DNA of 32,000 bases from Ignicoccus hospitalis KIN4/I (GTDB lineage Archaea > Thermoproteota > Thermoprotei_A > Sulfolobales > Ignicoccaceae), in contig NC_009776.1 in NCBI RefSeq assembly GCF_000017945.1, forward strand, positions 690,001 through 722,000, in the 5' to 3' direction. Each line of letters starts with the position of its first letter. The first letter of the stretch is position 1. This document shows, piece by piece, positions 9,163 through 31,099 of this stretch. The notes under the pieces were generated by a model. The model was not told the origin of the DNA and did no database searches. It worked only from the letters and a program-made list of their open reading frames with translations. A program made the position numbers and the translations under genes.

Positions 9163-9194
9163 AAACAGCCCCTCGGAGCGTCGCGAGGGACCAA

Positions 9195-18444: not shown

Positions 18445-20945
18445 CTCTTCACCTTTACTATGACGTCCGATAACAAGTGAGTGCCCGTAACCGGGTCTAT
18501 CAAGAACGGTGATTGAAGAACGTTGAACTTTAGGTCCTTGTACTTACCAAACGTCAACTTCACCTCGAACCCGTAGTTCGGCGGAACGTAGATCGCCTCT
18601 GGGACTATGCCTTCGGTCAGCTTCGCCGGCCCCCTGACGCACTCCTCGCCGGCGCACACCTCGACCACCTCGCCGTCGTTGATGCCCAACCTCTGCCCCC
18701 TAGCCTTGTTTATCCATATCTTCTTGGAATCGTCAACTATCCACGACAACAGCGGGTTAGGTTGTAGCCACGTGTAGCTCATGTTTTTCTCCTTCCCAGT
18801 CAAAAGTACGAACTCGTCAGAGGCTAAGGCCTTCCTCATCCAGATCGGGGGTACCCAGGTGGGCAGCGGGTGCCACTCGGGCTTAAGCTCACCCTTCCTC
18901 GACTTTATTATTTTCAATAGTTTGAGCGGCAAGATCTCCACCTTTCCGCTGGCCGTGTTAAGCCAGCCGTTCTCCAAGATTTTTGCGTTCATTTCCAATC
19001 CCCACGAGTCGTCCGTCAAGTACACTATTCCTTTGTTCTTCACGTCGTCGAACTTTACCCCTTGCTTCTCGCACTGCTTGCGTATTACGCTCTCGAAGTC
19101 GCCCTTCTCGAGCGCTTCCTTTACGTCACAGCCCGGACAGAGCACGTTTTCCAACTTGCTTAGGTATTTCTCGAGGAGGCCAAGCTCTCTGAAGGCGTCG
19201 GCCCATATGGTTAGCATGTCCTTGCACTCGGCCTCGACTGCGGGGAAGGCCGCCATGAACCCCTTAGCCAAGCTGAATGGGATGCCGCTGAGGACGTTGT
19301 ACCTTTCTAAGTAACCGCACTCCGGTATGAACAAGTCGCTGTAGAGCACGCTGTCGTCTTTCATTAATCCTATGTCTATTATTTTCTCGACGTTGGGGTG
19401 TTTGGCTACCTTCTGGAACGCTTGACCCATGAAGGTCCTCGCGGGGTTGCCGCCCAAGATGATGATTACGACTCCTTTGTTCTCTTCGACGAATCTGAGG
19501 AGGCCGTGGTACCCCCTGCCCCAAGGTATGAGCGGGCCTTTGGTTACGGTGCCGTCGCTGAGGGCTATCGGCGTCTCGCTCTCGTACTCGTAAAGCTTAG
19601 ACGGCTTTTCCTTCACCGGAGGGCCGGCCACCGGCGGTGCGGCCCTCTGCAACACCTTCCCTATTCCGCCCATACTGAGGACCACGCCTCCGGGCCTCAG
19701 GAAGTTGCCAGTAACGATCGAGAGGACGGCCGCGGCCCGGTACAGCTGGAAGTGGTTGAAGTACTTGTTAGCGCTCCACCCCGTCTCTACGGCGGCGGGC
19801 CTGGTCATGGCGAACTCGGCCGCAAGTTTTTCTACCACCTCCTTGGGGACGCCGCTGACCCTCTCAGCCCACTCCGGAGTGTAATCCTTGAGGTGTTCCT
19901 TGAGCGCGTTAAAGACCGTAGTGACGGGCTTGCCCTCGTACTCACCTTCGTAGGTTAGGGAGGGCAGCTTGGCTTCTCTGGAGAACTTGAAGGAGTCGGA
20001 GGCCTCGTCGAATACTAGGAAGTCAACGACCTCGAACTCCTTCATCGGGTTCTTAACAACTATGTTCTTCGTTTCCACCAGTTCCAAGGTGTCCTTGTAT
20101 ATTAGCATGGGCGCGTTGGTATATTTCTTCAAGTACGTTTCATCGTAGAGGCCTTCGTTGATTATCACGTTAAGCATGGCTAGGAAGACGGCTAAGTCAG
20201 TGCCGGGCTTCACCGGAACCCACTCGTCGGCCTTGGCCGCCCACTCGCTCAGCCTCGGGTCCATAACTACCAGCTTGTAGCTGCCCAACTTGGCGCCGGC
20301 CTTGGCCGTCTGGCCCACTGCTACCGAGCCGCCCAAGTTCCTTCCGAAGGAGAGGAAGTACTTGGTCCTCTCGTAGTCTGGGACCAAGAACGCGTGGTGG
20401 CCCGGGGCCCCGGAGAAGCCCCACGAGAGCAGCTTCGAGCCTATGCAAGTCGAGAGCGGGATGTTGATAACGTTGTCAGTGCCTATCGTCGGGGCTATGG
20501 CCATACTTATAGGGTCGTTGTACGCGGCGGCAGCAGCTTGGCCTACTACCAACACGACCTTCCAAGGGGCACCCTCTTCGAGCTTCTCCTTTATTATGCT
20601 GGCCATCTCGGCAATTGCGGTCTTGTAGTCTACTTCTTCGAAGTCCCACGACCCCCTCTCGGATCCCCGCCTCTTGAGGGGCGTCCTCAACCGGTCCGGG
20701 TTTTCGAGCTGTAGAGGCCCGGAGTTCCCCCTAGGGCACACGTGGCCTTTGTTGTGGTAGGTCGCGTAGGGGTTGCCGTAAACCCTCACGGCCTTTCCGT
20801 TTCGGACCTCTACCAGTATACTGCACGACGCCGTACACATGCGGCATATGTTCGGTACTAGCTTGACTCCGGAGGCCCTCTCCTTTTCTAGGCCTTCTAA
20901 CGGCACGTTGAACGGCTTTACCGAGAGTTTTGATAAGATCTTCAT
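18441..20945 (-). CDS. Molybdopterin (bis-MGD) oxidoreductase catalytic subunit, Psr/Phs/Ttr/Sre-like
   Basis: 834 aa. N-terminal CRMCTASCS...C Fe-S motif, a TCIG candidate Mo-ligand region, IILGGNPA, and a C-terminal barrel (INKARGQRLGINDGEVVEV). An in-frame stop lies 2 codons upstream of the ATG, so no Tat leader is possible. Confidence 0.9.
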   Translation of the reverse strand: MKILSKLSVKPFNVPLEGLEKERASGVKLVPNICRMCTASCSILVEVRNGKAVRVYGNPYATYHNKGHVCPRGNSGPLQLENPDRLRTPLKRRGSERGSWDFEEVDYKTAIAEMASIIKEKLEEGAPWKVVLVVGQAAAAAYNDPISMAIAPTIGTDNVINIPLSTCIGSKLLSWGFSGAPGHHAFLVPDYERTKYFLSFGRNLGGSVAVGQTAKAGAKLGSYKLVVMDPRLSEWAAKADEWVPVKPGTDLAVFLAMLNVIINEGLYDETYLKKYTNAPMLIYKDTLELVETKNIVVKNPMKEFEVVDFLVFDEASDSFKFSREAKLPSLTYEGEYEGKPVTTVFNALKEHLKDYTPEWAERVSGVPKEVVEKLAAEFAMTRPAAVETGWSANKYFNHFQLYRAAAVLSIVTGNFLRPGGVVLSMGGIGKVLQRAAPPVAGPPVKEKPSKLYEYESETPIALSDGTVTKGPLIPWGRGYHGLLRFVEENKGVVIIILGGNPARTFMGQAFQKVAKHPNVEKIIDIGLMKDDSVLYSDLFIPECGYLERYNVLSGIPFSLAKGFMAAFPAVEAECKDMLTIWADAFRELGLLEKYLSKLENVLCPGCDVKEALEKGDFESVIRKQCEKQGVKFDDVKNKGIVYLTDDSWGLEMNAKILENGWLNTASGKVEILPLKLLKIIKSRKGELKPEWHPLPTWVPPIWMRKALASDEFVLLTGKEKNMSYTWLQPNPLLSWIVDDSKKIWINKARGQRLGINDGEVVEVCAGEECVRGPAKLTEGIVPEAIYVPPNYGFEVKLTFGKYKDLKFNVLQSPFLIDPVTGTHLLSDVIVKVKR

Positions 20946-20951
20946 AATCTA

Positions 20952-21893
20952 TCACCCATAAATTAGGACTTTTAACAATAACAAGGCTATCCATATCAAA
21001 AACGCCGCGAGGGTAACCATGACTTCGGGGCGCTCGACGAACGCGGCCTCTTGGGAGAAGGCGTAGGAGTACGGCGGCAAGCTCAGCCTCAGCCTCTGAG
21101 GCCACTCCGCAGAGAGCGCCTTGTTCGCGAACAAGCCTATGAAGGCCAGCGCGGCCCCCGCGACGGGGTTCGCGAGAGAGACGACGGCGGCCAGCGCTAG
21201 GAGCGCGTAGTACGGCGCTACGTACTTGAGCGGCACTTCCAACCTCTCGAAGGACTTAACGAAGTAGAGTTCCCAGAAGTCGAGGAGTAGTAAGGAAATT
21301 ACGGATACCAATATAATGTCCCCCCTCGTTAACCATATACCCATCGCTAGGAATGTTGCCGCTGCGAACTCGGCGGCCTTGGCGGAGCCTTGCCACCCGG
21401 GCACCTTACTAGTCCCGAACGCCATACCGAAGTTCGTTTCCAACAAGATAGCCGAGGCTATGGCTAGGAGCGCGGCCTCCGGCGAGGGGGCGAGGAGGAG
21501 CCAGAGTATCGACAACGCTAATAGCACGTAGAATGCGACGTTCCACGCGATCCTAGAAGTCTTGTTGAAGCTCGTTAGGATGTTAATTGCCCTCTCGGGG
21601 GCGCCTAGGTCGGCGACCACCAGCGCCCACGCGGGTACCAAACTGGCCAAGGCTAGGAACGCCAACGGTTGGGGCTCAGCCCTTATCACTCCCAGCCCCG
21701 CGAGCCCCGCGGCTATCGCCGCTCCCGCGGCTAGCGTTGCGAAGAACGAATACGCGGGGACTAGGAACTTCCAAGCAATTTTCGACCTCTCTACCATTCC
21801 TTCTTCGTTTGCTAACAGTTCGCGCCAGTACTTTACGAACGCTAAGGCGCCCGCGCATGCCAGTATCAAAAAGCTCACGGCGACAATGACCAA
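20952..21893 (-). CDS. NrfD/PsrC-like membrane anchor subunit
   Basis: 313 aa with about 8 helices. ADLGAPERAINILTSFNKTSRIAWNVAFY matches the NrfD signature (DLG.PeR...S.ma). First gene of the operon. Confidence 0.8.
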   Translation of the reverse strand: MVIVAVSFLILACAGALAFVKYWRELLANEEGMVERSKIAWKFLVPAYSFFATLAAGAAIAAGLAGLGVIRAEPQPLAFLALASLVPAWALVVADLGAPERAINILTSFNKTSRIAWNVAFYVLLALSILWLLLAPSPEAALLAIASAILLETNFGMAFGTSKVPGWQGSAKAAEFAAATFLAMGIWLTRGDIILVSVISLLLLDFWELYFVKSFERLEVPLKYVAPYYALLALAAVVSLANPVAGAALAFIGLFANKALSAEWPQRLRLSLPPYSYAFSQEAAFVERPEVMVTLAAFLIWIALLLLKVLIYG

Positions 21894-21953: not shown

Positions 21954-23063
21954 TCAGCGCGCCCTCAACCACTCTTCGTATATTCCCCTCTCCAACGCCC
22001 ACTCCTTCAACGGGCCTAACACTATTGCCTTGCCCTTTATGTGCTCCGGGGCGGGGCTTCCCGTCAAGAACAAGCCTATCTTTATTGATAGCATCATAGA
22101 TTTCAAGAACTTTTTCAATTCTTCTTTCCCCTCATAAGCCGCCTTGAGGGCGGGCAAGGCTACTCCGACCAAGTCGGCCCCGAGGGCTAACGACTTTACG
22201 GCGTGTAGGCCGTCCCTTATGCCTCCCGAAGCTATTACTAAGGCGTCCGGCGCGGCGGCTCTGGCCTCCATTATCGACGCGGCCGTCGGGATCCCCCAAG
22301 AGGACATCCAGTCAGCCACAGTCGCTAGCACTTCGTCGCCCTTCTCCCTCGCTCGGTACATCTCCACCCTCACCCAGCTCGTCCCCCCGGAGCCGGAGAC
22401 GTCGAAGGCCTTTATTCCGAGCTCCCTAAGAGCCTTCACGCTTTCGTAGTCCAAGCCCGCTCCCGTCTCCTTTATTATTATTGGCTTCTCCACCTTGTCT
22501 ACTAGTTCAGAGAGCTTGTTCAGCAACCCTTTGTAATCTACGTCGCCTTCCGGTTGGAATGACTCCTGGGCGGCGTTCAAGTGAATAGCTATGGCGTCGG
22601 CGTCTATCATATCTATAGCTTTCTTTATCTCTTCTAAGCCGTAGCCCTTGAGCAGCTGCGGCGCGCCCAAGTTGGCTATTAACAGCGCGTTGGGGGCCCT
22701 TTCTCGGGCTATCCTGAAGGTCCACTCCAGCTCCGGCCTCTCGACCGCTGCCCTCTGGCTCCCCACCCCCATGCCCAACCCCAGCTCTTCTACGACCTCA
22801 GCGATGACGGCGTTGATCTTAGCTGCGTGTTCGTTGCCCCCGGTCATGCCGGTTACTATGAGAGGCGCGCTCAACTTCTTCCCGAAGACTTCTATTTCAG
22901 TGACCACCTCCTCTAGGTTAAGCTCCGGCACGGCTCTGTGAGGGACTTTGACGAAGTCCAACCACGTGTCGCCGGCCTCGACGTCCTCGAGGAGGGTTAT
23001 CCGTAAGTGGTCAAGCTTCCTGTTCGACGTTTCCAACTTCGCACCAGCCCGCCTTTTACACAA
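21954..23063 (-). CDS. fni: Type-2 (FMN-dependent) isopentenyl-diphosphate delta-isomerase
   Basis: Collinear with type-2 IDI as I recall it: NRKLDHL, PLIVTGMTGG, GMGVGSQRAA, IANLGAPQL, DAIAIHLNAAQE, IIKETGAG, DVSGSGGTSW and IASGGIRDG. The start is TTG 23063 or TTG 23036. Confidence 0.92.
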   Translation of the reverse strand: MCKRRAGAKLETSNRKLDHLRITLLEDVEAGDTWLDFVKVPHRAVPELNLEEVVTEIEVFGKKLSAPLIVTGMTGGNEHAAKINAVIAEVVEELGLGMGVGSQRAAVERPELEWTFRIARERAPNALLIANLGAPQLLKGYGLEEIKKAIDMIDADAIAIHLNAAQESFQPEGDVDYKGLLNKLSELVDKVEKPIIIKETGAGLDYESVKALRELGIKAFDVSGSGGTSWVRVEMYRAREKGDEVLATVADWMSSWGIPTAASIMEARAAAPDALVIASGGIRDGLHAVKSLALGADLVGVALPALKAAYEGKEELKKFLKSMMLSIKIGLFLTGSPAPEHIKGKAIVLGPLKEWALERGIYEEWLRAR

Positions 23064-23107
23064 AAACGCTCTATTTTACTGGTTCTCGCAGTCCCGGGGC
23101 TCAAGCC

Positions 23108-23677
23108 TTGGAGAGGAGGACTAAGGAGACCGTGGTCAAAGTGGAGAAGTGCGAGCGCGCGAGCGCAGACGTGGAGATACCCTTCTTCCGCCACATGCTC
23201 GAGACGTTCTTGAAGCATTCCGGCCTGGCCGCTTGCATAAGCGCTCGCGACCTCCAAGGCTTTGATGACCACCACTTGGTGGAGGACGTGGCCATAGTTC
23301 TGGGAAGGTTCTTGAAAGAAGAGTTCGCTAAGAAGGTGGAAGAGGGAACTCTCAAGAGGTTCACGTGGTCTTTGGTCCCCATGGACGAGGCGCTGGCGCG
23401 CTGCGCGCTCGACGTCTCAGGGAGAGGAGGCTTCTACGGCAGTATGGAGTTCGAGCGGGAGGAGATAGGCGGCCTCGCGCTGGAGAACGTGGAGCACTTC
23501 TTCGAGACCCTCGCTCGGGAGGCAAGGATCACGTTGCACTTAGACCTCCTTAAGGGCAAGAACGACCATCACAAAGTAGAAGCGTTGTTCAAGGCGTTCG
23601 CCAAGTGTGTGTCCGAAGCGCTGGGGTACGGCGGAGAGCTCAGCACCAAGGGGGTGATAGAGATCAATGGTCAGTAA
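23108..23677 (+). CDS. hisB: Imidazoleglycerol-phosphate dehydratase
   Basis: RRTKETVVKVE, FFRHMLETF, DDHHLVEDVAIVLG, VPMDEAL and NDHHKVEALFKAFA are HisB signatures. TTG start. Confidence 0.9.
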   Translation: MERRTKETVVKVEKCERASADVEIPFFRHMLETFLKHSGLAACISARDLQGFDDHHLVEDVAIVLGRFLKEEFAKKVEEGTLKRFTWSLVPMDEALARCALDVSGRGGFYGSMEFEREEIGGLALENVEHFFETLAREARITLHLDLLKGKNDHHKVEALFKAFAKCVSEALGYGGELSTKGVIEINGQ

Positions 23678-23849
23678 ATTGAACGTTTTAAACTTTTGAC
23701 TCCATTCTATCTATACAATAGTATATCATGCCCTTCAGCCGTAATAATCGATATATATCCTAATATTGTGAATCGAGCCCGAAGCAACTAGCAAATCGAG
23801 GATGCCGGTAACTGGCATAGTTAATGTACGGATTAGCTTTCCCAGAACT

Positions 23850-25811
23850 CTAGCTACCATCTTTGAGCCTCCTTCTAAGCGCGACTAGGAAGACACTAGC
23901 CAACGCAACGACGGGGGTCTCGGGCTTTGTCGTACTAGACAGTATCGTAGTTGTCTCTACTAAGGTGGTTGGAACCAGCGTTACAGACGTTGTAACCACA
24001 GCGGTGTTAGTAAGAGTTACGTTCGCCGGAGGGAAGAACCCGTATATGGGTTCCCTCTCAGCGTACTTCCTCACCCTGACCCAGTCCCAGAAGTCCGATA
24101 CGTTGACCTTCTTCCTCTGTTCTACTTTAAACTTCCCACCGAAGTTGGGGCACTGCAGCGAAGTGCTGGCCAATAAGTTCCCGTTCTGATCGAAGACGTT
24201 TATTGAGAAGGTTCCGTTGAACGAGACCTTAAAGGTCAGCCACCGGTGATCGGGGAACGCGTCGAGCAGTTTGACGTCTTCCACTTGACCGTTGCATATC
24301 AACCTAGAGCTCAAGGAGGTCCCGTCCATTTCGTGTAACGAAAGCTCGTTCCCGCTCCGGTCTTCAATTACTAACGCGTTCCACTGGTCGTCCCCGCCCA
24401 TGTTCATTACCTTGGCCTCAACCAGGAACTCGCTTACCGATATCTCCTTGCTTACCATGTTCGACCAGTGGTCGCTCCCCCACACCTCTAACTGGCCGTC
24501 GTAGATCTTGTAATTGATTGGTAAGTAAGTACCGCTGCCCAGAATCCACTTGGTAGAGTTCAGCTGGGTTTCAGAGAAGTCGTCGTAGAAGTCAAACACT
24601 TGGTCCCCGCTTACAGCCCCGTTCGCGACTCTCTCAATTATTAGGTATATTCCGCTCTTGGCCGGTATCGACGGGACCCTTATCCAGACATAGCCATCGC
24701 CTTTCAATGGATCTGCTGTACACTCATCATTAGCAGTTTCGTAGCAGAAGGGGACGCTGATCCCGTTGTAGATCACCTTTAGCGGTTTGCCTTGGAGCTC
24801 AATTGGCAATTGAGCCCTTAGCTGGTACTCTGCGAGGTCGTAGTCGTTGGGGTTGAAGACGGCCAGGAGGGAGTGTGGCGAAACCATGACAACGGAAGCA
24901 ATTGGTTCCTCATCAGCGTACTTCCTCACCCTGACCCAGTCCCAATAGTCCTTATTGCTATAGCATTTCCATTGCCTTATGTAAGCTTCAGTGAAGTCAT
25001 TGCAAGTGAACACCTTACTCGCTTTCACTAAGAGGTTCCAGCTATTGTCGAATACCTCTCCCCAGTAGGAAGTGCCTTTCTTGACTATCCTCAGTATTAA
25101 CCATTGGTTCAATGGGAACCTATCCATTAGTTCCTCATAGTCATTGTCGTAATTACCTCTACAGTACACTTGCACGTACATGTCGTCACTGCCCCAGATG
25201 TTGAGTATTCCGTACCTATTCCAATCGCCGTTCGCGTCGGTTAGGTATAACGCGTGCCACTGATCGTCTTGAGCATTGAGGATCCTCGCTTCAACTACTG
25301 CGTTCTCCAAGCCTATTGGATCCTTGCTCCTAAGGATCCTCCAGTGTCCGTCCGACCAAGTAGCCAACTGACCGTTTTCGATTGAGTAGTAAATTCCGCC
25401 GTAATTAGCATCGCCTAAGACCCATTTATTAGTATCCAATTGACCCTCGTTGAAGTCGTCGTAGAAGTCGAACACTTGGTCTCCATTAACTGCTCCGTTA
25501 GTTCCGACTGCTAACTTTAGTCCAGTCTTCCCGTTGGCCGGTATGAATGGGACCTTTATCCAAATGTAACCGTCGCCCTTTGTCGAGTCAGTAGTGCACT
25601 CGTAATTGGTAGTTTCGTAGCAGAATGGAACTGGGGAGTTGTTGTAGGTTATGGCTATCTCTCTACCCTTCAACTCGTCCGGTAGCTCAACCCTTACTTG
25701 GTACTCCGTGAGGTTGTAGTCGTTCGGATTGTAAATGGTCACGTGGTAGATCCAGTTCGAAGCAGTAGCAATGGCTACTAACAGAGTAAGGATTACCGCG
25801 ACTCTCCTCAC
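23850..25811 (-). CDS. Exported surface protein with two tandem lectin-like modules (DUF2341-like plus ConA/LamG-like) and a C-terminal Thr-rich anchor
   Basis: Signal peptide MRRVAVILTLLVAIATAS. Two modules of about 290 aa each contain NPNDY..EYQ, PFCYET.N.ECT, GDGY.WI.VP, GDQVFDFYDDF...L...KW and WDWVRVRKYA. C-terminus is T-rich ...PVVALASVFLVALRRRLKDGS. GTG start with a TATA box about 40 nt upstream. Confidence 0.85.
   Translation of the reverse strand: MRRVAVILTLLVAIATASNWIYHVTIYNPNDYNLTEYQVRVELPDELKGREIAITYNNSPVPFCYETTNYECTTDSTKGDGYIWIKVPFIPANGKTGLKLAVGTNGAVNGDQVFDFYDDFNEGQLDTNKWVLGDANYGGIYYSIENGQLATWSDGHWRILRSKDPIGLENAVVEARILNAQDDQWHALYLTDANGDWNRYGILNIWGSDDMYVQVYCRGNYDNDYEELMDRFPLNQWLILRIVKKGTSYWGEVFDNSWNLLVKASKVFTCNDFTEAYIRQWKCYSNKDYWDWVRVRKYADEEPIASVVMVSPHSLLAVFNPNDYDLAEYQLRAQLPIELQGKPLKVIYNGISVPFCYETANDECTADPLKGDGYVWIRVPSIPAKSGIYLIIERVANGAVSGDQVFDFYDDFSETQLNSTKWILGSGTYLPINYKIYDGQLEVWGSDHWSNMVSKEISVSEFLVEAKVMNMGGDDQWNALVIEDRSGNELSLHEMDGTSLSSRLICNGQVEDVKLLDAFPDHRWLTFKVSFNGTFSINVFDQNGNLLASTSLQCPNFGGKFKVEQRKKVNVSDFWDWVRVRKYAEREPIYGFFPPANVTLTNTAVVTTSVTLVPTTLVETTTILSSTTKPETPVVALASVFLVALRRRLKDGS
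24027..25757 (-). repeat. Internal tandem duplication (2 x about 0.86-0.88 kb) within the 653-aa gene
   Basis: Residues 19-310 align with residues 311-595. There is an exact 32-nt identity between 24058-24089 and 24913-24944. A second near-identical patch starts at 24579 and 25455. Confidence 0.9.
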
Positions 25812-25847
25812 GGTTCACTACCGTTTTACGTGACTCGTTACAGACTC

Positions 25848-25855
25848 TATTTATA
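25848..25855 (-). promoter_or_regulatory. TATA box (TATAAATA on the minus strand) of the 653-aa gene
   Basis: tatttata on the plus strand, centred about 41 nt upstream of the GTG at 25811. Confidence 0.55.
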
Positions 25856-25861
25856 GTTAAC

Positions 25862-25906
25862 ATTGTTACGAATTGTCACCATCGTTAAGTATCGTTCTGA
25901 ATCGTT
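25862..25906. repeat. Phased hexamer array ATYGTY x5 at 10-bp spacing, immediately upstream of the TATA box
   Basis: ATTGTT at 25862, ATTGTC at 25872, and ATCGTT at 25881, 25891 and 25901. Confidence 0.7.
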
Positions 25907-26124
25907 TGCCTAGTTACTAATTATAACAAACATGCCAATAACTTTTAAGATCCAGAGAGTCAGTGGTTCGCACGGATTGCCTGCGTTTGGCGCAGAAAAT
26001 GCGAACTTTCGACCAGCTCGTTACCAATCGAGTCGGTCGCATTTGACTAAGGAGTTACCTGGATCTGACCTATAAGTTACCAAGAAATGGGCAACTTATA
26101 ATAGATATTAATTCGCAACTCGAT

Positions 26125-26265
26125 ATGGACGATACGGACGTTTTGGAGGAGCTTAAGTGGCCCTTTCAAGCTTTCTTGGTGTTGCTCTTAGACAGCTCTG
26201 ATGCACATCACTTAAGCATCAATAACTTAATCAAATTAAGGAGAAAGAACGCCCTTCCTGACTAA
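26125..26265 (+). CDS. Candidate 46-aa ORF (not in track)
   Basis: ATG 26125 is preceded by cttataata about 25 nt upstream. Translation: MDDTDVLEELKWPFQAFLVLLLDSSDAHHLSINNLIKLRRKNALPD. No motif recognised. Confidence 0.2.
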   Translation: MDDTDVLEELKWPFQAFLVLLLDSSDAHHLSINNLIKLRRKNALPD

Positions 26266-26310
26266 TTCTTGGAAGTACTCGCTATCCTTCAAGTCGTCCT
26301 TATAGAGTTC

Positions 26311-26556
26311 CTAGACCTCTCTAACGTATTTGAAGACGATCTCCTTTACTTCCCCCTCACCCCAGTCCCAAATGTCAAGTAACGTCTTCGCTAATGCCTC
26401 GGCGAAGAGCAATACTCTCTTGCGTCTCTTCTTGACTGCCGCTTGGACCATTTCGCCCCTCTGATAATTTTTGGAAGCGTGGGCAGAATAACTGAGCGAA
26501 GCTTCGGAGAGAAATTTCTGGGGGTTAACTTCACAATAATGTTTGAATAAGAACAT
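26311..26556 (-). CDS. Hypothetical small protein (81 aa)
   Basis: ATG start, with ttttaaa (minus strand) about 45 nt upstream. Basic patch KKRRKR. No family recognised. Confidence 0.35.
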   Translation of the reverse strand: MFLFKHYCEVNPQKFLSEASLSYSAHASKNYQRGEMVQAAVKKRRKRVLLFAEALAKTLLDIWDWGEGEVKEIVFKYVREV

Positions 26557-26620
26557 AGCTATTCATCGAGAACCAACTCGAAGGGTGTTAGGAAAGCGAA
26601 TGCCCGTTTAAAAAGCTAGG

Positions 26621-27616
26621 TTACTCCTTCTTCTTCCTCAACTTAGGCACCAAGAACGCAGCTGCCAGAGCGACGGCCGAAATCTCCGATGTGTTCGGCG
26701 TAGTAGTGGTTGATACTGGCTGAGGGGTATACCTCACTACTCGGTACATCTCAATCTTGCCGTTTGAATACCCAACTGCTAGCCTGTCCTTCCACCAAGC
26801 GACGTTCCAAATTCCCTCCATCCTCTTGAAGTAGACCAAGTTTCCGTTTATGTCGAATATCTTGAGCATGTTATTTCCATTATCAGCCACCGCTATGTAC
26901 TTACAGCCCGGAGAGAAGGCCGGGGTATGCTCGTTCCCACCAACGCCCAATCTACTTCTATTCCACAGCAACCTAGGATTGGCTGGATCCGAAATGTCGT
27001 AAACGTAAAGCTCCTTGGCGATTACTGCTAAGTAGTTTCTGCAAGCGTTAACGCTTCCAGATGGGTAATCATAGCCTATTTCATTGACTATTTCTCCAGT
27101 GTTCAAGTCCAGTATTTGGAGCTTTTTGCCACCTTCGTTAGCCGCGTAAACGTAGCCCTTATGGACTACTACGTCTTCAACATAATCACCAACTCCGGTG
27201 TCCCAGTACTTGTATCCGCTGAAGTCGTACTTGGCGCAATAGTAATCGCAAGCTACGAAGGCGTTACCGAAGAGGGCAATTGCTAAATCGTGACTGTCTC
27301 CAACCTCTATCTTCTTCCAGAAGGTTCCGTCCTCCTTGAAGAGGTAGACGTAGTCATCGGTATTAACGAAGCCGAACACTCTGTTGGAGTAGCCGGCCCC
27401 AGCCATAATGCCTCCTCCGCACTCCTTCCCCAACAAGTTCCCGTTGGGATCAACGATGTAGGCGCAATTGTCCCAAGAGGCTATTCCCAAGTTGCCGTTC
27501 GGTGAGAAGACCATGTCCTCAATGGCGTTGTTAGGCTCACTGAAGGTCCACAGGAGCTTCAGGTCAAGCGCGTGAAGTACGGCCAATAGCAGCAGAGCTG
27601 CTGCCAGCGCCCTCAC
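26621..27616 (-). CDS. Exported beta-propeller protein (LVIVD/PQQ-like repeats) with a C-terminal Thr-rich anchor
   Basis: Signal peptide MRALAAALLLLAVLHA. Repeated strand motifs, including ELYVYDISDPANPRLL (LVIVD-like), YVYAANEGG, IAVADNGN and KIFDINGNL. C-terminus is TTTTPNTSEISAVALAAAFLVPKLRKKKE. GTG start. Confidence 0.8.
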   Translation of the reverse strand: MRALAAALLLLAVLHALDLKLLWTFSEPNNAIEDMVFSPNGNLGIASWDNCAYIVDPNGNLLGKECGGGIMAGAGYSNRVFGFVNTDDYVYLFKEDGTFWKKIEVGDSHDLAIALFGNAFVACDYYCAKYDFSGYKYWDTGVGDYVEDVVVHKGYVYAANEGGKKLQILDLNTGEIVNEIGYDYPSGSVNACRNYLAVIAKELYVYDISDPANPRLLWNRSRLGVGGNEHTPAFSPGCKYIAVADNGNNMLKIFDINGNLVYFKRMEGIWNVAWWKDRLAVGYSNGKIEMYRVVRYTPQPVSTTTTPNTSEISAVALAAAFLVPKLRKKKE

Positions 27617-27755
27617 TTTTCTTTCTTCCTCAAGTCGGGGCTACTGATGGACTTTCTCTAATAAGTTTTTGCTATAACAGCCGAATGTTTAACGGACAGT
27701 ATAGTTTTTAAATACCCTCAATACAGTCTAAAATGTCCTAAATTTAGCTTTAGCG

Positions 27756-28067
27756 CTAGGTACGAGGGGCCTGTAAACCAATAGAAGCGTTCCACATCGG
27801 CTCAAGCCCTATCTTCTTTAAGTTCTCGCTGTTGGTTACACAGTACTTCATGGGGGTTTCGTCATTAGAGTATGGCCGGAATGTGTTATCTGTCCCCCAG
27901 ATCTTGAACTGTGGTACTACGCTGCTTATTTCTTTCCAAGTTATAGTTCCGTTGTCCGCACACGCTCCTAGTTGGTTGAGTGCGTCAACGAACGCGGTTG
28001 GCGCTATTCCGTTCATATCACACTTGAAGTAATCAGGGTTATAGAGCACTCCCGTATCTAACAGCAC
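27756..28067 (-). CDS. Orphan ORF or possible gene remnant (103 aa)
   Basis: GTG start, no signal peptide, no motif. A TATA-like ctataaa (minus strand) lies about 65 nt upstream. Flanked by a 10-bp inverted repeat and an 11-bp direct repeat. Confidence 0.3.
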   Translation of the reverse strand: MLLDTGVLYNPDYFKCDMNGIAPTAFVDALNQLGACADNGTITWKEISSVVPQFKIWGTDNTFRPYSNDETPMKYCVTNSENLKKIGLEPMWNASIGLQAPRT

Positions 28068-28412
28068 TATGCCTACGTCTTGCGGAGCTACGACGGCGTT
28101 CTAGGGAGTAGGGTCGGTGATGGCAGTTAGTTTATAGCGTTAATTAGGTTTAGCTTTAGATCCAAGGACATTTTTGCTCGATTAGAACTGCTCGAAAGCT
28201 ACTAACTTTGTGAATATTAATACAATACAACATGGATTGCGAAGATCAGTACAGTTAGGTGATAGAAACTGGAAAGCTTGGGCTTTTCTGTTTGGGTGTA
28301 CAGTCTTTAGTACCGATATATTTTATGGAATTTTTCTATCTGGAATCATTACTGATATCGCAAAAGCCAAGGTTTAGAAAATCGAAAACCGAGATTAGGT
28401 CGTTACTGCACA

Positions 28413-29333
28413 ATGGCTTATATATTAGCTAGAGAATGCACCGGGCTGAGGGAAGTGAGGATGAGGTCGTGGCTAGTGTTGTCAGCGATGATTGCCCTCG
28501 CAACTGCTCGGGTTTACATAGTGTTCCCAGTGACAACAACCACCGTTAGTTATACGATGTTGCAACCTAATAATACTATGATAGCGTTCGAGGGTGACTG
28601 CTTCCCTTATGGTTTCACGGCAACTCTGATCTACAGATCCAACATAAGTGCGACTACTACCACGGTGGACGCGGGTACCGTTTACACGGCTGGTACATTA
28701 CTACAACCAGAGATTCAGAACGTTGTAACGTTAACCCAATTACCGAATGCCATAGAGAATGGGATAGTTAAGGTCTTCTGTGTTAATGCGCGGCAAAGAG
28801 TATATGCTATCTCCAGTACAGTCCAAACCATAAGCGTGTCAGGCGTTGTTACCAATACCATCAGTTACGTAACGACCAAAACGTATATGATACCTACTGT
28901 TGCATCAGAGGTGTACCCTCCCGGAATAACAGCCTATAAAACCACCTATGCCACAACTTCAGCTCACTTCATCACTACCACTAAGGTTACCTTTACAACC
29001 AGCGGTGCTATTGAAACTACAATAACTCTCAGTAATCTCATAACAGAAAATCCCCTAAGAGGGTTAGAGATGCCCGCCAATCCGATTTCTGCAGTGATAA
29101 CTACCCCATCCACAGTACTAACCGCTGTACATGATGTCCTTGAAATGTTGATACCAGTGACAGTGAGCGCAATAGCTGAAGGGAGTAAACCCATGACTAC
29201 AAATGCCGCCGACACAGCGACCACCACAGTTACAGGTAGCATTCCCGCGCCAATACTGCTAGCCTTTGCTTCAGCAATACTAACTAAGAGATTTAAAAAA
29301 TCTTCAAAAAAGGTTGTCGTTACTGCCAAGTAG
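28413..29333 (+). CDS. Exported Thr/Val-rich surface protein with a C-terminal anchor
   Basis: The internal ATG at 28461 gives the signal peptide MRSWLVLSAMIALATA. The body is rich in T/V/I beta-strand-like segments and N-x-S/T sequons. C-terminus is TATTTVTGSIPAPILLAFASAILTKRFKKSSKK. Confidence 0.75.
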   Translation: MAYILARECTGLREVRMRSWLVLSAMIALATARVYIVFPVTTTTVSYTMLQPNNTMIAFEGDCFPYGFTATLIYRSNISATTTTVDAGTVYTAGTLLQPEIQNVVTLTQLPNAIENGIVKVFCVNARQRVYAISSTVQTISVSGVVTNTISYVTTKTYMIPTVASEVYPPGITAYKTTYATTSAHFITTTKVTFTTSGAIETTITLSNLITENPLRGLEMPANPISAVITTPSTVLTAVHDVLEMLIPVTVSAIAEGSKPMTTNAADTATTTVTGSIPAPILLAFASAILTKRFKKSSKKVVVTAK

Positions 29334-29664
29334 GCAAATGCCGCCAACTAATCGTTTTTAATTTCTTTCCTTTCGTAAGGAAGTTCTGCATGAAAGAGGT
29401 GTGATGGCATACGGAACATCTGAAATATTAGATAGGCAATACAATAATATACGATATAACGATTGTGATCGCTGTAATTTAGAGAATCGCGATACTCTGG
29501 TTATTACCCCAACTTAGTACTTTAGAGCACATTATAATTTGCGGTCTAGACATACAAACGCAGAAGACCGATATGAAGTTTAACATGATATCAAACTAAT
29601 TCCCAACGCCGAAATTTATATGTAGAGATACGATACTAGATAATGTTCGCTCGAGGAAGGAGAG

Positions 29665-30121
29665 ATGAGAGTATTGGCAACAACTCTGCTGCTAGCTCAC
29701 CTACACCGACACCGTCACTAGGTGGATCGTTTATACAACGACGTACACCACCACTAAGACTTTGGGACCCAAAACCGTGACCGAAGTTTACACGACCACC
29801 TACACTACCACTAAGGTACTCGAGAGGCATCCTATAACAGAGACCGTCACAGAGGTCATAACTAAGCCCATAACTTCCGTAGTGACGTCGGTAGAGACAG
29901 TCACTGAGACTATCACTAGAACGCTCCTAACGGCCACCACGCTCTCGACGACCATACTCCTCACTACGACTAACTTGACCCTTACGAGCGTTACGACCAC
30001 CACCGTGGTGTCTCAAGTTACTAACGTGTACATACCGACGGTAGCGCTGCTCGGCGCCCTCATAGCGGCCAAGCTCGGGATTAGGAGGGAGGGGAGGGTT
30101 TGGGAGTTTTTAAAACAGTAG
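29665..30121 (+). pseudogene. Thr-rich anchored surface protein whose signal peptide and body are in different frames (+1 shift near 29693-29700)
   Basis: ATG 29665, preceded by gaggaaggagag and tttatat, encodes MRVLATTLLLAHLHRHRH-stop in frame 1. Frame 2 is open from 29696 (LTYTDTVTRWIVYTTTYTTTKTLGPK...), which is upstream of the tracked TTG at 29762, and it ends in TVALLGALIAAKLGIRREG. Confidence 0.65.
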
Positions 30122-30340
30122 GTTTCGCGTAGTCGAAACTTATGCATAGTGAGGCTACGTCACCACCTAAATCCCTCGCTTGGCCTTAACGTTCCTCTAT
30201 AAGCCCGCCCGAGTTCCCACTTGGCCCTTCCTCCATACAGCTTATATAAAGATGAGCGTTGAGTAACGCTAAGGCGATCTTGATCTATGTATGAAGGCTT
30301 ACGAGGTTATTTTAGGTGGTTTTTTCAGGGCTAGGGTCAG

Positions 30341-30574
30341 CTAAGCCTTAACTTCTGCTTCGGCCTTCTCGACCCTAATGCTGTCAGTGGGACAGTTCTC
30401 CACGCAAGCCATACATCCTATACAAGCCTCTTCCCTAACGACTTCGCTCACCAACCTGAAGTATTCGCCGTCCTTAACCATCTTTATTTCAAAAACGTCC
30501 GTCGGACATATCTGGGCGCAGACGCTACACCCTATACAAGTCTCCTTTTTGACGCTCACCTTGAACGCGGTCAC
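30341..30574 (-). CDS. fdx: 2x[4Fe-4S] ferredoxin
   Basis: CIGCSVCAQICP and CIGCMACVENCP. 77 aa. GTG start, with actataag about 40 nt upstream. Confidence 0.9.
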   Translation of the reverse strand: MTAFKVSVKKETCIGCSVCAQICPTDVFEIKMVKDGEYFRLVSEVVREEACIGCMACVENCPTDSIRVEKAEAEVKA

Positions 30575-30739
30575 TCTTGAATACCCCTTCTCGACACATT
30601 ACGGGGCTTATAGTTATTGGCGGTTAGGGGGATGAGGTGGCCGATTTGTGCGCTCGACTGATGACGAATGTGGGACCTCGCCGACCCGTGCCTTACTTTT
30701 AATATATTGGCTTGGAGCGCGTGGCTAGGGAGAGCCGGG

Positions 30740-31099
30740 ATGAGCTTGGACGCCCAAGCGCAAAAGCTGTTAGCTCAATACCAGCAACAGCAAGAGGTCT
30801 ACCAGAGCTTGGTCCAGCAGAGGGTACTGCTGGAGGCCGAGCTCAAAGAGCTTAAGAAGGTCTTAGAAGAGCTCGAGAAGCTCCCAGAGGACGCCGAGCT
30901 TTATAAGAACGTGGGCCACGTCCTATACAAAACCAAGAAGGACGATTTGGTTAAGGAAATAAAGGACAAGATAGACCTCATAGAGGTGAAGCTGGCCGGC
31001 CTGAAGAAGCAAGAGGAGCTCGTCAAGAGCGAGTTAGAAAAGCTCCGCCAGCAGTTGCAGAAGGTGTTGAGCGGTGGAGGGCTGGCAGGAGGAGGTTGA
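30740..31099 (+). CDS. pfdB: Prefoldin beta subunit
   Basis: MSLDAQAQKLLAQYQQQQEVYQSL...LYKNVGHVLYKTKKDDL...LEKLRQQLQ is a coiled-coil / beta-hairpin / coiled-coil pattern. ttttaatatatt lies 30-40 nt upstream of ATG 30740, so the tracked start at 30668 lies upstream of this promoter. Confidence 0.85.
   Translation: MSLDAQAQKLLAQYQQQQEVYQSLVQQRVLLEAELKELKKVLEELEKLPEDAELYKNVGHVLYKTKKDDLVKEIKDKIDLIEVKLAGLKKQEELVKSELEKLRQQLQKVLSGGGLAGGG

What the first reader, a model, noticed from the sequence alone, without database searches (positions are those of the whole stretch)
23678..30340. Low-GC accessory island encoding only exported, anchored surface proteins
Composition changes directly after the hisB stop at 23677. 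My hand counts of sampled 60-nt lines inside the island are 37% (28141-28200), 38% (25081-25140), 43% (28801-28860) and 45% (27001-27060). The neighbouring oxidoreductase operon gives 63% (20221-20280). Gene spacing also changes, from overlapping or under 100 nt to AT-rich spacers of about 140-500 nt (25812-26310, 27617-27755, 28068-28412, 29334-29664). Every convincing ORF in the island has an MR... Sec-type signal peptide and a C-terminal anchor, and none has a housekeeping function. I see no integrase, transposase or tRNA at the borders. This looks like a horizontally acquired or fast-evolving cell-surface, adhesion or cell-contact module with no named system.
Basis: partly seen in the sequence, partly recalled or inferred. 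Interest (0 to 1): 0.7.

Follow-up and report, generated by a model that had tools for sequence, protein, structure and literature searches.

The report
Lineage-specific surface-protein islet in Ignicoccus hospitalis
A 6.7-kb AT-rich stretch inserted between two housekeeping genes of the archaeon Ignicoccus hospitalis carries genes for membrane-anchored, exported binding-type proteins from a fast-evolving, genus-specific gene pool; this is a real but fairly ordinary "flexible island", and the proteins are barely expressed in culture.

Summary
The window is the Ignicoccus hospitalis KIN4/I chromosome, and the island is Igni_0806 to Igni_0811. Island GC is 46.5% against 55% in both flanks (Mann-Whitney p=4e-8). 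It is 27-36% non-coding against 6% in the flank, and synonymous codon usage is non-host-like in five of six ORFs.

It is a true insertion. In the sister lineage (a metagenome contig), in a MAG and in I. pacificus, hisB and the ferredoxin gene abut with overlapping stop codons (CTAG).

Contents:
- Three intact type-I anchored proteins, each with a Sec signal, an ectodomain, a Thr-rich stalk, a short C-terminal hydrophobic segment and a Lys/Arg tail:
  - Igni_0806, two copies of DUF2341 plus a ConA-like jelly roll.
  - Igni_0808, a beta-propeller.
  - Igni_0810, a tiny orphan family.
- One frameshifted relative, Igni_0811.
- Two doubtful small ORFs.

These modules are fused to one another in other Ignicoccus species, so they are probably functionally linked. 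Igni_0808 and its I. islandicus homologue have dS of 0.54, against more than 1.5 for housekeeping genes. That implies recent exchange within the genus.

There is no integrase, no tRNA at the borders, and no phage or plasmid match. Published proteomics found almost no product. Adhesion or binding is inferred, not shown.

The parts
23108..23677 (+). hisB (Igni_0805), the left flanking core gene. Its last codons (…I-N-G-Q*) differ from relatives (…V-D-L*) because the insertion begins at about 23669.
   Evidence: Pfam IGPD 2.5e-49; exact match to ABU81987; junction alignment.
23678..30340 (.). The inserted islet: 6663 nt, GC 0.465. It is replaced by about 31 nt or less, with the two stop codons overlapping, in the three relatives that keep hisB next to the ferredoxin gene.
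   Evidence: blastn: window 22020-23655 and 30360-30945 map to L075 2-1630 and 1662-2237. The same junction is seen in L074 and L073. GC statistics.
23850..25811 (-). Igni_0806, 653 aa. Domains: signal peptide (aa 1-17); DUF2341 (20-110) plus ConA-like jelly roll (112-300); second DUF2341 (313-400) plus second ConA-like domain (405-592); Thr-rich stalk (593-631); hydrophobic segment PVVALASVFLVAL plus RRRLKDGS tail.
   Evidence: Pfam PF10102 2.3e-31 with 2 stretches. AF2 pLDDT mostly 80-98 for aa 20-400, with dips to about 60-70 near aa 200-230. Foldseek top PDB hits are GH16, CBM66 and ERGIC-53 lectin folds, E 6.5e-7. No ExDxxE motif. The two repeats are 46% identical with dN/dS 0.17. TATA-like and SD-like elements lie upstream.
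25812..26310 (.). AT-rich spacer of 499 nt, GC 0.41. No ORF with homologues.
26311..26556 (-). Igni_0807, an 81-aa ORF that is probably not a gene.
   Evidence: No signal or anchor and no family hit. Its start overlaps the conserved 3' flank of Igni_0808, but there is no ATG at that position in I. islandicus. Zero spectra in PMC3149612 Table S1.
26529..26620 (-). 3' flank of Igni_0808, conserved with I. islandicus. A T5 run follows directly after the stop codon.
   Evidence: 146/172 nt (85%) identical to L076 across the CDS end plus flank. No significant fold.
26621..27616 (-). Igni_0808, 331 aa: signal peptide (1-16), beta-propeller (17-296), TTTT linker, hydrophobic segment ISAVALAAAFLVP plus KLRKKKE tail.
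   Evidence: PDB sequence hits to designed and natural archaeal 'Cell surface protein' propellers, 1.4e-11. Pfam gives only sub-threshold WD40/LVIVD/propeller hits. It is 71% identical to I. islandicus EYM_04150 and 69% to the I. hospitalis paralogue ABU81617. dN/dS is about 0.3.
27756..28067 (-). Igni_0809, a 103-aa ORF of doubtful coding status.
   Evidence: No signal, anchor, family or homologue outside this strain. Zero spectra.
28461..29333 (+). Igni_0810, 290 aa when read from Met17 (GenBank starts it at 28413). Signal peptide MRSWLVLSAMIALATA; N-terminal domain with two invariant Cys; 19% Thr overall; anchor IPAPILLAFASAILT plus KRFKKSSKK tail.
   Evidence: RefSeq has a 290-aa version. 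All homologues start with MR (alignment A4). Only 6 homologues exist among 1.84e9 representatives. GC3 is 0.44 and the codon score is -0.336 bits per codon. TATA and SD elements lie upstream of Met17.
29665..30121 (+). Igni_0811, a frameshifted gene. The ATG at 29665 encodes MRVLATTLLLA in frame 1 and stops at about 29719. The Thr-rich body (33% Thr) with the anchor IPTVALLGALIAA…RREGR runs in frame 2 from 29696.
   Evidence: Three-frame translation. Its 5' region is 74% similar over 42 nt to that of Igni_0808 (inverted repeat I1). An independent assembly, L001, has the same sequence.
30334..30343 (.). Right junction. GGTCAGCTAA here resembles GGTCAGTAA at the left junction (23671-23679). This is a weak possible direct repeat.
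   Evidence: Read directly. By my estimate, chance is not excluded (p roughly 0.02-0.05).
30341..30574 (-). Ferredoxin gene (Igni_0812), the right flanking core gene.
   Evidence: Pfam Fer4_7 1.4e-16. It is 78-86% identical to the gene abutting hisB in L073, L074 and L075.

Best explanation
Shown. The interval is a 6.66-kb lineage-specific insertion, a small flexible genomic island ('islet'), in the I. hospitalis lineage. It lies exactly between the convergent stop codons of hisB and a ferredoxin gene. In relatives those two stop codons overlap as CTAG.

The islet carries four genes, each with its own upstream TATA-like box and purine-rich ribosome-binding-like stretch. All four follow the standard crenarchaeal design for a type-I anchored envelope protein: an SPase-I type Sec signal (MR + hydrophobic + A), an ectodomain, a Thr-rich stalk, a short C-terminal hydrophobic segment with a [IVT]P…AL/LL motif, and a Lys/Arg tail.

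The ectodomains are:
- two tandem DUF2341 + concanavalin-A-like (lectin/glucanase fold, no GH16 catalytic motif) units in Igni_0806;
- a beta-propeller in Igni_0808;
- a Cys-pair domain plus a Thr-rich beta-rich region in Igni_0810;
- a Thr-rich remnant in Igni_0811, which is disabled by a frameshift.

The three families belong to a multi-copy gene pool seen mainly in Ignicoccus and related uncultured archaea (DUF2341 itself is much more widespread), and in other species the modules are fused to each other. That links them functionally.

The pool evolves by domain shuffling, by recombination between paralogues, and by exchange between Ignicoccus lineages. Igni_0808 and I. islandicus EYM_04150 have dS 0.54, against more than 1.5 for housekeeping genes, and their 3' flank is 85% identical.

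The low GC has two sources. One is the AT-rich promoter and spacer DNA. The other is synonymous codon usage closer to that of the 45-48% GC Ignicoccus species than to the host's.

Inferred. After Sec export the proteins stay tethered by the C-terminal segment to the inner membrane, or reach the outer cellular membrane after vesicle traffic. There they would act as glycan- or protein-binding (adhesin or receptor-like) envelope components.

Inferred. The locus is variable because such proteins are under diversifying or frequency-dependent pressure from viruses, symbionts or neighbouring cells. It is largely silent under laboratory conditions.
For: Identity of the window: exact protein matches to ABU81987-ABU81994.

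Insertion:
- blastn and tblastn junctions in L075, L074 and L073.
- In the hisB tree, L075 is sister to I. hospitalis with 92% bootstrap and the other two relatives lie outside that pair. hisB-ferredoxin adjacency is therefore the ancestral state.

Composition:
- GC values and statistics.
- Codon log-likelihood: all 27 host genes score +0.025 to +0.27 bits per codon in favour of the host model. The island genes score -0.04 to -0.34, except Igni_0811.

Architecture:
- ORFs, hydrophobic segments and tails.
- DUF2341 hit at 2.3e-31.
- AF2 model and Foldseek ConA-like fold.
- Propeller hits at 1.4e-11.
- Igni_0810 family alignment.

Fusions:
- EYM_02635, EYM_06285 and IPA_07620 join a propeller to DUF2341/ConA-like units.
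- The I. pacificus 555-aa protein joins a propeller to a Igni_0810-like domain.
- I. pacificus also has a similar low-GC cluster.

Exchange and recombination:
- dS values.
- 3' flank identity.
- Tracts of about 120 nt at 100% identity with the paralogue.
- 80% nt identity of one DUF2341 domain to the I. islandicus-like locus L080.

Selection: dN/dS of 0.17-0.33.

Literature:
- SP + S/T linker + C-terminal TM is the usual crenarchaeal anchor, and crenarchaea lack archaeosortases (PMC3387779).
- arCOG03508/DUF2341 proteins have been proposed as adhesins (PMC4858521).
Against: - No protein function is demonstrated.
- Proteomics covering more than 75% of predicted proteins found 11 spectra for Iho_0806 in pure culture and none in co-culture. 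It found zero spectra for Iho_0807-0811 (PMC3149612 Table S1). Membrane proteins are under-sampled in that study.
- There is no mobility gene, no tRNA target and no convincing flanking repeat, so the insertion mechanism is unknown.
- The compositional background is only about 28 kb of I. hospitalis DNA.
- The non-host codon usage is also seen in the paralogue outside the island. It could therefore reflect low expression or a trait of the family rather than foreign origin.
- The I. hospitalis versus I. islandicus dS control rests on two housekeeping pairs, and differing GC3 inflates their dS.
- The phylogeny rests on a single gene.
- The second ConA-like domain and all of Igni_0810 have low-confidence models.
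Confidence: 0.7

Rival explanations
1. Ancestral segment lost elsewhere. On this view the gene cluster was present in the Ignicoccus ancestor between hisB and the ferredoxin gene, and was precisely deleted in the other lineages.
For: Homologous families exist in all three cultured Ignicoccus species. Synteny in the genus is generally poor: in I. islandicus hisB sits next to a Cas6 gene.
Against: Three relatives, including the sister lineage L075, show the same hisB-ferredoxin junction with overlapping stops. Repeated deletions that each recreate CTAG are implausible. The island's composition and codon usage differ from those of the flanking genes. Homologues in the other species sit at unrelated loci.
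Confidence: 0.05
2. Decaying, non-functional DNA. On this view the segment is a relic under relaxed selection, AT-biased mutation explains the low GC, and the ORFs are on their way to becoming pseudogenes.
For: Igni_0811 is frameshifted. Between 27% and 36% of the island is non-coding, with no recognisable remnants. Peptide evidence is close to zero. The paralogue ABU81617 has lost both its signal peptide and its anchor.
Against: Three ORFs of 290-653 codons remain intact in AT-rich DNA. dN/dS is 0.17-0.33. Each gene keeps TATA-like and SD-like elements. I. hospitalis has a streamlined 1.3-Mb genome with few pseudogenes (PMC2614490).
Confidence: 0.15
3. Acquisition from outside the genus. On this view a virus, a plasmid or the symbiont Nanoarchaeum equitans (about 32% GC, from my own knowledge) delivered the segment.
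For: The GC is low. I. hospitalis is in physical contact with N. equitans, and lateral exchange between the two has been reported (PMC2614490).
Against: There are no PHROGs or PADLOC hits and no phage or plasmid DNA match. The named homologues closest to the island proteins are from Ignicoccus.
Confidence: 0.03
4. Pilus-associated tip adhesin. On this view Igni_0806, as an arCOG03508/DUF2341 protein, works like the proposed PilY1-like tip adhesins of archaeal type IV pili rather than as a membrane-anchored protein.
For: The proteomics table assigns Iho_0806 to arCOG 3508. That arCOG is proposed as a pilus tip adhesin in Methanococci (PMC4858521). A DUF2341 gene in the M. maripaludis epd locus is needed for transformation (PMC10133366).
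Against: Igni_0806 has a class I signal peptide, not a class III (prepilin) signal. It ends in a hydrophobic anchor with a basic tail. The window contains no pilin, PilB/C-type or prepilin peptidase gene.
Confidence: 0.07

Closest known systems
Flexible (hypervariable) genomic islands encoding cell-envelope proteins in prokaryotic genomes
   Same: The segment is present in one lineage and absent at the same locus in close relatives. Its GC and codon usage are atypical. Its cargo is exported or anchored envelope proteins from fast-evolving multi-copy families. There is evidence of recombination and of exchange among related lineages.
   Different: It is small (6.7 kb). It has no integrase, transposase, tRNA target or clear att repeats. 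No population data show within-species variability; all matching contigs come from the same strain.
Crenarchaeal type-I anchored surface (glyco)proteins, such as Sulfolobus/Aeropyrum oligopeptide-binding proteins and SlaB-type stalk anchors (PMC3387779)
   Same: [quoted passage not shown]
   Different: The ectodomains are unrelated (DUF2341/ConA-like, beta-propeller, the Igni_0810 family). The hydrophobic segments are short, at about 13-15 residues. Ignicoccus has no S-layer and has an outer cellular membrane, so the final location is unknown.
arCOG03508 / DUF2341 large proteins of methanococcal Epd type IV pilus loci (proposed PilY1-like adhesins, PMC4858521)
   Same: They share the DUF2341 domain (Pfam 2.3e-31) and the arCOG assignment, and both are inferred to have an adhesive or binding role.
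   Different: Igni_0806 has no pilus genes nearby and no class III signal. It is membrane-anchored and carries two DUF2341 + ConA-like units in tandem.
YVTN/WD40-like beta-propeller 'cell surface proteins' of Methanosarcinales, and the expanded WD40-like family (arCOG02491) noted in the I. hospitalis genome paper (PMC2614490)
   Same: A beta-propeller ectodomain with sequence similarity to PDB 'Cell surface protein' propellers (1.4e-11). It is a member of the family expansion reported for I. hospitalis.
   Different: Pfam WD40, LVIVD and propeller models are all below their thresholds. Igni_0808 is a single propeller with a signal and an anchor. No S-layer association is possible.
Archaeosortase substrates with tripartite C-terminal sorting signals (PGF-CTERM, VPXXXP-CTERM)
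   Same: A short motif ([IV]PxP / [IT]PxxAL), a hydrophobic stretch and a cluster of basic residues at the extreme C terminus, preceded by a Thr-rich region.
   Different: No NCBIfam CTERM model matches. Crenarchaea are reported to lack archaeosortases and their substrates (PMC3387779). Cleavage and lipidation are untested.

Membership tests
Horizontally acquired genomic island (classical definition) | Present in one genome and absent at the same locus in close relatives | tested here: met
   hisB and the ferredoxin gene abut in L075, L074 and I. pacificus L073. L075 is sister to I. hospitalis.
Horizontally acquired genomic island (classical definition) | Base composition and codon usage that deviate from the host | tested here: met
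   GC is 0.465 against 0.553 (p=3.6e-8). Codon log-likelihood is negative for 5 of 6 ORFs and positive for 27 of 27 host genes. The background is only the window, not the genome.
Horizontally acquired genomic island (classical definition) | Mobility genes (integrase, transposase, recombinase) | tested here: not met
   No such domain in the ORFs scanned with Pfam, NCBIfam, PHROGs or PADLOC; the four smallest ORFs (41-55 aa) were scanned with PHROGs only.
Horizontally acquired genomic island (classical definition) | Insertion at a tRNA gene with flanking direct repeats | tested here: not met
   The only tRNA lies 11 kb away. The junctions share only GGTCAG(C)TAA, which may be chance.
DUF2341 (PF10102) / arCOG03508 | Significant match to the family profile | tested here: met
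   E 2.3e-31, 108.5 bits against a cut-off of 23.4, in two stretches. arCOG 3508 is listed in PMC3149612 Table S1.
Concanavalin-A-like lectin/glucanase fold (GH16-like) | Beta-jelly-roll fold similar to GH16, CBM66 and L-type lectins | tested here: met
   AF2 pLDDT is mostly 70-98 for aa 112-300, dipping to about 60 near aa 220-230. Foldseek hits to 6t2o, 4pq9, 3d6e, 4b1m and 1gv9 have E 6.5e-7 to 5e-5 and TM (target) 0.56-0.71.
Concanavalin-A-like lectin/glucanase fold (GH16-like) | GH16 catalytic ExDx(x)E motif | tested here: not met
   A regex search of the 653-aa protein finds none. It is therefore not filed as a glycoside hydrolase.
WD40/YVTN-type beta-propeller cell-surface proteins | Sequence match to propeller repeats | tested here: inconclusive
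   PDB hits 8prj (1.4e-11) and 8pra 'Cell surface protein' (2.6e-6). All Pfam propeller, WD40 and LVIVD hits are below their curated cut-offs. No structure model was made.
Crenarchaeal SP + S/T-linker + C-terminal TM anchored proteins | N-terminal SPase-I type signal, Thr/Ser-rich stretch, C-terminal hydrophobic segment and basic tail | tested here: met
   Sequence features of Igni_0806, 0808 and 0810. No dedicated signal-peptide predictor was available. Glycosylation and topology are not testable here.
Archaeosortase (PGF-/VPXXXP-/PEF-CTERM) substrates | Match to a CTERM sorting-domain model and presence of an archaeosortase | tested here: not met
   No NCBIfam CTERM hit at E<=0.1. The literature states that crenarchaea lack archaeosortases (PMC3387779). 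The rest of the genome was not scanned.
Type IV pilus tip adhesin (PilY1-like) | Pilus locus context and class III signal or pilin-like N terminus | tested here: not met
   There are no pilus genes in the window. The N terminus is a class I signal and the C terminus is a membrane anchor.

The most novel reading that the evidence does not exclude
Ignicoccus species may share a pool of exchangeable envelope-protein genes, built from propeller, DUF2341/ConA-like lectin and Thr-rich stalk modules. The genes would move between lineages and between loci by recombination without any recognisable mobile-element machinery. The I. hospitalis-specific set inserted at hisB would then contribute to cell-cell recognition, for example as a receptor or decoy that helps determine why only I. 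hospitalis hosts Nanoarchaeum equitans. Alternatively it could be a virus-receptor variation locus.
Probability: 0.08. Interest if true: 0.75.

Novelty: new member of a known kind. Interest (0 to 1): 0.4.

Why it matters
I. hospitalis is the only cultured host of Nanoarchaeum equitans, and how the two cells recognise each other is unknown. A lineage-specific set of anchored, lectin-like and propeller envelope proteins is a reasonable place to look.

The low synonymous divergence between Igni_0808 and its I. islandicus homologue indicates that envelope genes are exchanged within this genus of hyperthermophiles without any visible mobile element. That is a modest but testable point about archaeal genome dynamics.

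Against this, the proteins are almost undetectable in published proteomes of pure culture and co-culture. Variable surface-protein islands are also a common theme in prokaryotes. The finding therefore refines the annotation more than it reveals a new system:
- Igni_0811 is frameshifted.
- Igni_0810 most likely starts at Met17.
- Igni_0807 and Igni_0809 are doubtful genes.
- Domain fusions link the three protein families.

Tried and rejected
- The one genome-contig scan, run with hisB, returned only Methanobacterium, Clostridia and similar hits and no Ignicoccus. Synteny had to be recovered through protein homologues and the look-up of encoding contigs instead.
- Literature searches for the Igni_08xx locus tags found nothing. 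The proteomics table uses Iho_ tags. Giannone 2015 (PMC4274422), which includes transcriptomics, is not held.
- A single-sequence AF2 model of Igni_0810 was useless, with pLDDT 36.
- NCBIfam gave no CTERM or other family for any island protein. PHROGs and PADLOC gave nothing.
- No phage or plasmid DNA similarity was found.
- Rfam found only the distant tRNA. The conserved 3' flank of Igni_0808 has no significant fold, with z of -0.6 and 0.06.
- The tandem-repeat scan found nothing of note.
- blastx of the spacers against all collected Ignicoccus proteins and ORFs found no pseudogene remnants. The apparent 38-aa hit was the nucleotide-conserved 3' flank.
- The shared end of five Logan contigs at 24087 looked at first like a strain-variation breakpoint. 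The break coincides with the 51-nt internal repeat of Igni_0806 (88% identical, containing an exact run of about 33 nt), so I read it as an assembly break.
- My first propeller tree used a wrong sequence because of a file-name clash. It was redone.

Full report
**Identity and observation**

All flanking proteins and five of the six island ORFs match Ignicoccus hospitalis KIN4/I proteins exactly, from ABU81987 (hisB, Igni_0805) to ABU81994 (ferredoxin, Igni_0812). The 119-aa reading of Igni_0811 is not in the collection. The finding therefore covers Igni_0806 to Igni_0811.

The compositional step is real:
- GC is 0.465 for 23678-30340, against 0.553 to the left and 0.550 to the right.
- The fourteen 500-nt windows in the island differ from the fifty outside it (Mann-Whitney p=3.6e-8).
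- No 6.66-kb window in the left flank falls below 0.541.
- The four long spacers exist, with GC 0.35-0.41.
- Coding density falls from 94% in the flank to 64-73% in the island.
- Gene GC3 is 0.44-0.66 in the island, against 0.63-0.80 for the 25 genes to the left.

A synonymous-codon likelihood test, which removes amino-acid composition, gives a clear split. All 27 flanking genes favour the host codon model over I. islandicus or I. pacificus models, by +0.025 to +0.27 bits per codon (mean 0.153, sd 0.053). The island ORFs score as follows:

| ORF | bits per codon |
|---|---|
| Igni_0806 | -0.04 |
| Igni_0808 | -0.09 |
| Igni_0807 | -0.13 |
| Igni_0809 | -0.13 |
| Igni_0810 | -0.34 |
| Igni_0811 | +0.09 |

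The island is therefore compositionally deviant but not uniform.

**It is an insertion**

I therefore took hisB homologues and fetched their contigs.
- In an ENA metagenome contig (L075, hisB 74% identical), in MAG GCA_054016835.1 (L074) and in I. pacificus (L073), the ferredoxin gene follows hisB directly, on the opposite strand.
- blastn maps window 22020-23655 and 30360-30945 onto L075 2-1630 and 1662-2237.
- tblastn finds an unannotated ferredoxin gene at L073 10547-10762.
- Junction alignments show the two stop codons overlapping as CTAG in L074 and L075. The I. hospitalis hisB acquires a slightly different, three-codon-longer C terminus from the inserted DNA.
- A hisB tree puts L075 as sister of I. 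hospitalis (92% bootstrap) with the other relatives outside that pair. Adjacency is therefore ancestral and the island was gained on the I. hospitalis branch. This rests on a single-gene tree.
- I. islandicus has rearranged the locus and is uninformative.

The contigs that match the window exactly are all the same strain. The five Logan contigs are 99.98-100% identical, and the 19 kb of L001 that overlap the window (including the whole island) are 99.989% identical. Within-species variability could therefore not be assessed. Five Logan contigs all end at window position 24087, which coincides with the 51-nt internal repeat of Igni_0806, so I read this as an assembly break rather than a strain breakpoint.

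**Gene content**

- **Igni_0806 (653 aa)** has a signal peptide and two tandem units of DUF2341 (Pfam 2.3e-31), each followed by a second domain. An AlphaFold model built on 49 homologues is confident for residues 20-400. Foldseek places the second domain in the concanavalin-A-like lectin/glucanase fold, with GH16, CBM66 and ERGIC-53 as top hits (E down to 6.5e-7). There is no GH16 ExDxxE motif, so a binding role is more likely than a hydrolytic one. The protein ends in a Thr-rich stretch, a 13-residue hydrophobic segment and RRRLKDGS.
- **Igni_0808 (331 aa)** has a signal peptide, a beta-propeller, a TTTT linker and a hydrophobic segment followed by KLRKKKE. The propeller gives PDB sequence hits to archaeal 'Cell surface protein' propellers at 1.4e-11, but Pfam hits are only sub-threshold.
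- **Igni_0810** most likely starts at Met17. RefSeq has a 290-aa form, all homologues begin with MR, and TATA-like and SD-like elements lie upstream of Met17. It is 19% Thr, has two invariant cysteines and ends in IPAPILLAFASAILT-KRFKK. Only six homologues were found among 1.84 billion cluster representatives, one of them I. pacificus IPA_01195.
- **Igni_0811** is broken. A signal-peptide start (ATG 29665, MRVLATTLLLA) lies in frame 1, and the Thr-rich body plus anchor lie in frame 2. Its 5' region resembles that of Igni_0808. An independent assembly shows the same sequence.
- **Igni_0807 and Igni_0809** have no signal, no anchor, no family and no homologue outside this strain.

No integrase, transposase, phage, plasmid or defence signature was found. 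The only tRNA is 11 kb away.

**The three families are linked and belong to an Ignicoccus gene pool**

Homologues of Igni_0806 and Igni_0808 occur in I. islandicus and I. pacificus, but at unrelated loci. In those species the modules are fused:
- EYM_02635 and EYM_06285 are a Igni_0808-like propeller followed by a DUF2341/ConA-like unit.
- IPA_07620 is a DUF2341/ConA-like unit followed by two propellers.
- In I. pacificus, IPA_01195 (Igni_0810-like) sits in a cluster with a giant propeller protein, a 204-aa signal-plus-anchor protein, and a 555-aa protein that joins a Igni_0808-like propeller to a Igni_0810-like domain and the same VPxP…RKR anchor.
- That I. pacificus cluster has GC 0.40-0.42, against 0.50-0.53 for housekeeping genes of the same genome.

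The combination of modules and the relative AT-richness therefore recur in another species.

**Evolutionary dynamics**

| Comparison | dS | dN/dS |
|---|---|---|
| Igni_0808 vs I. islandicus EYM_04150 | 0.54 | 0.31 |
| hisB, I. hospitalis vs I. islandicus | 2.4 (NG86) | – |
| SIS-domain gene, I. hospitalis vs I. islandicus | 2.9 (NG86); 1.55 (LWL85) | – |
| Housekeeping genes vs closer relatives L074/L075 | 0.8-1.6 (one NG86 value not computable) | – |

- Igni_0808 and EYM_04150 are 77.7% identical in DNA over 1.1 kb. This includes 92 nt of 3' flank, and the last 172 nt are 85% identical.
- Both genes have GC close to 0.50 and GC3 close to 0.63, whatever the GC of the genome they sit in.
- This indicates exchange within the genus well after speciation. 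The direction is unknown.
- Igni_0808 also has a paralogue in I. hospitalis, ABU81617, with 82% nt identity. It contains tracts of about 120 nt that are 100% identical, and it lacks the signal and the anchor. This points to recombination or gene conversion.
- One DUF2341 domain of Igni_0806 is 80% identical in DNA to the I. islandicus-like gene in L080, while the rest of the gene is not.

**Function and expression**

The design of signal peptide, Ser/Thr-rich linker and C-terminal TM is the usual crenarchaeal way of tethering secreted proteins. Crenarchaea are reported to lack archaeosortases (PMC3387779), and no CTERM model matched.

DUF2341/arCOG03508 proteins have been proposed as PilY1-like adhesins in methanococcal pilus loci (PMC4858521), and one is needed for transformation in M. 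maripaludis (PMC10133366). Igni_0806, however, has no pilus context.

The most likely mechanism is therefore Sec export, tethering by the C-terminal segment, and ligand binding (glycan or protein) by the lectin-fold and propeller ectodomains. This is inference.

Whole-cell proteomics detected 11 spectra for Iho_0806 in pure culture and none in co-culture with N. equitans. It detected nothing for Iho_0807-0811 (PMC3149612 Table S1). That argues against a prominent role at the contact site under those conditions, although membrane proteins were under-sampled in that study.

**Verdict**

The region is a small, lineage-specific insertion of envelope-protein genes drawn from a rapidly reshuffled, genus-specific pool. 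It has no identifiable mobility machinery and little expression in culture. It is a new member of a known kind (flexible islands encoding surface proteins), of moderate interest mainly because of the organism.

Noticed in passing
window 26529-26620 (-) and L076 11048-11138: The non-coding 3' flank of Igni_0808 is about 85% identical to the flank of I. islandicus EYM_04150. That is more conserved than housekeeping coding sequence between the two species (70-73%). A T5 run follows the stop codon. No significant RNA fold was found.
   Followed up: partly
L078 1656-2666 (I. hospitalis ABU81617, elsewhere in the genome): This is a paralogue of Igni_0808 with 82% nt identity, including tracts of about 120 nt that are 100% identical (a gene-conversion-like mosaic). 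It lacks the signal peptide, and its C terminus (…PSRRQKEG) looks like a frameshifted version of the anchor (…PKLRKKKE). Its codon usage is also non-host-like.
   Followed up: partly
window 24046-24096 and 24901-24951; contigs L002-L006: Five independent Logan assemblies of this strain all end at window position 24087. That point coincides with the 51-nt internal repeat of Igni_0806, so I read it as an assembly break caused by the tandem DUF2341/ConA-like duplication, not a strain breakpoint.
   Followed up: yes
proteins P0018, P0019, P0020, P0023, P0024, P0028, P0030, P0043, P0045, P0109, P0116: Many homologues of Igni_0806 and Igni_0808 replace the Thr-rich stalk and TM anchor with a conserved helical C-terminal domain of about 45 aa (…CL[FI]..T[IM][DE]…K.F…YE.IVK.LS..). 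The family thus appears to have two alternative C-terminal attachment modes.
   Followed up: no
L073 10547-10762 (I. pacificus CP006868): A 72-aa ferredoxin gene, 78% identical to Igni_0812, lies directly after hisB but is not among the called genes of that record.
   Followed up: partly
L079 1-9400 (I. pacificus): This is a low-GC cluster (0.40-0.42) of signal-plus-anchor proteins. It contains a protein of more than 1395 aa with a propeller, a 204-aa protein, a 555-aa propeller + Igni_0810-like fusion, IPA_01195, and a further uncalled Igni_0810-like stretch at 8865-9338.
   Followed up: partly
L076 11233-11730 (-) and 8961-10000 (I. islandicus): A LAGLIDADG-type ORF lies immediately downstream of EYM_04150, the close relative of Igni_0808. 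A 1-kb gene-free AT-rich spacer lies upstream. This could bear on how the gene moved.
   Followed up: no
L080 4233-4340: In this I. islandicus-like Logan contig, the EYM_06285-type gene has a stop codon between its signal peptide (MRRLLLVTLISAMLLSS*) and the propeller body. This is another apparently decapitated family member.
   Followed up: no
window 23669-23677: The last codons of hisB (…IEINGQ*) differ from relatives (…VDL*). The insertion replaced the original stop codon and extended HisB by three residues.
   Followed up: yes
window 17785-21893 (-): Upstream of fni and hisB lies an operon of a 4Fe-4S protein, an 834-aa molybdopterin oxidoreductase and an NrfD-like membrane subunit. It has the polysulfide/sulfur-reductase-type architecture, which fits the sulfur respiration of Ignicoccus.
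   Followed up: no
window 28413-28460: The GenBank start of Igni_0810 (306 aa) adds 16 residues ahead of the signal peptide. Homologues, the RefSeq model and the upstream TATA/SD elements all favour Met17 (28461).
   Followed up: yes
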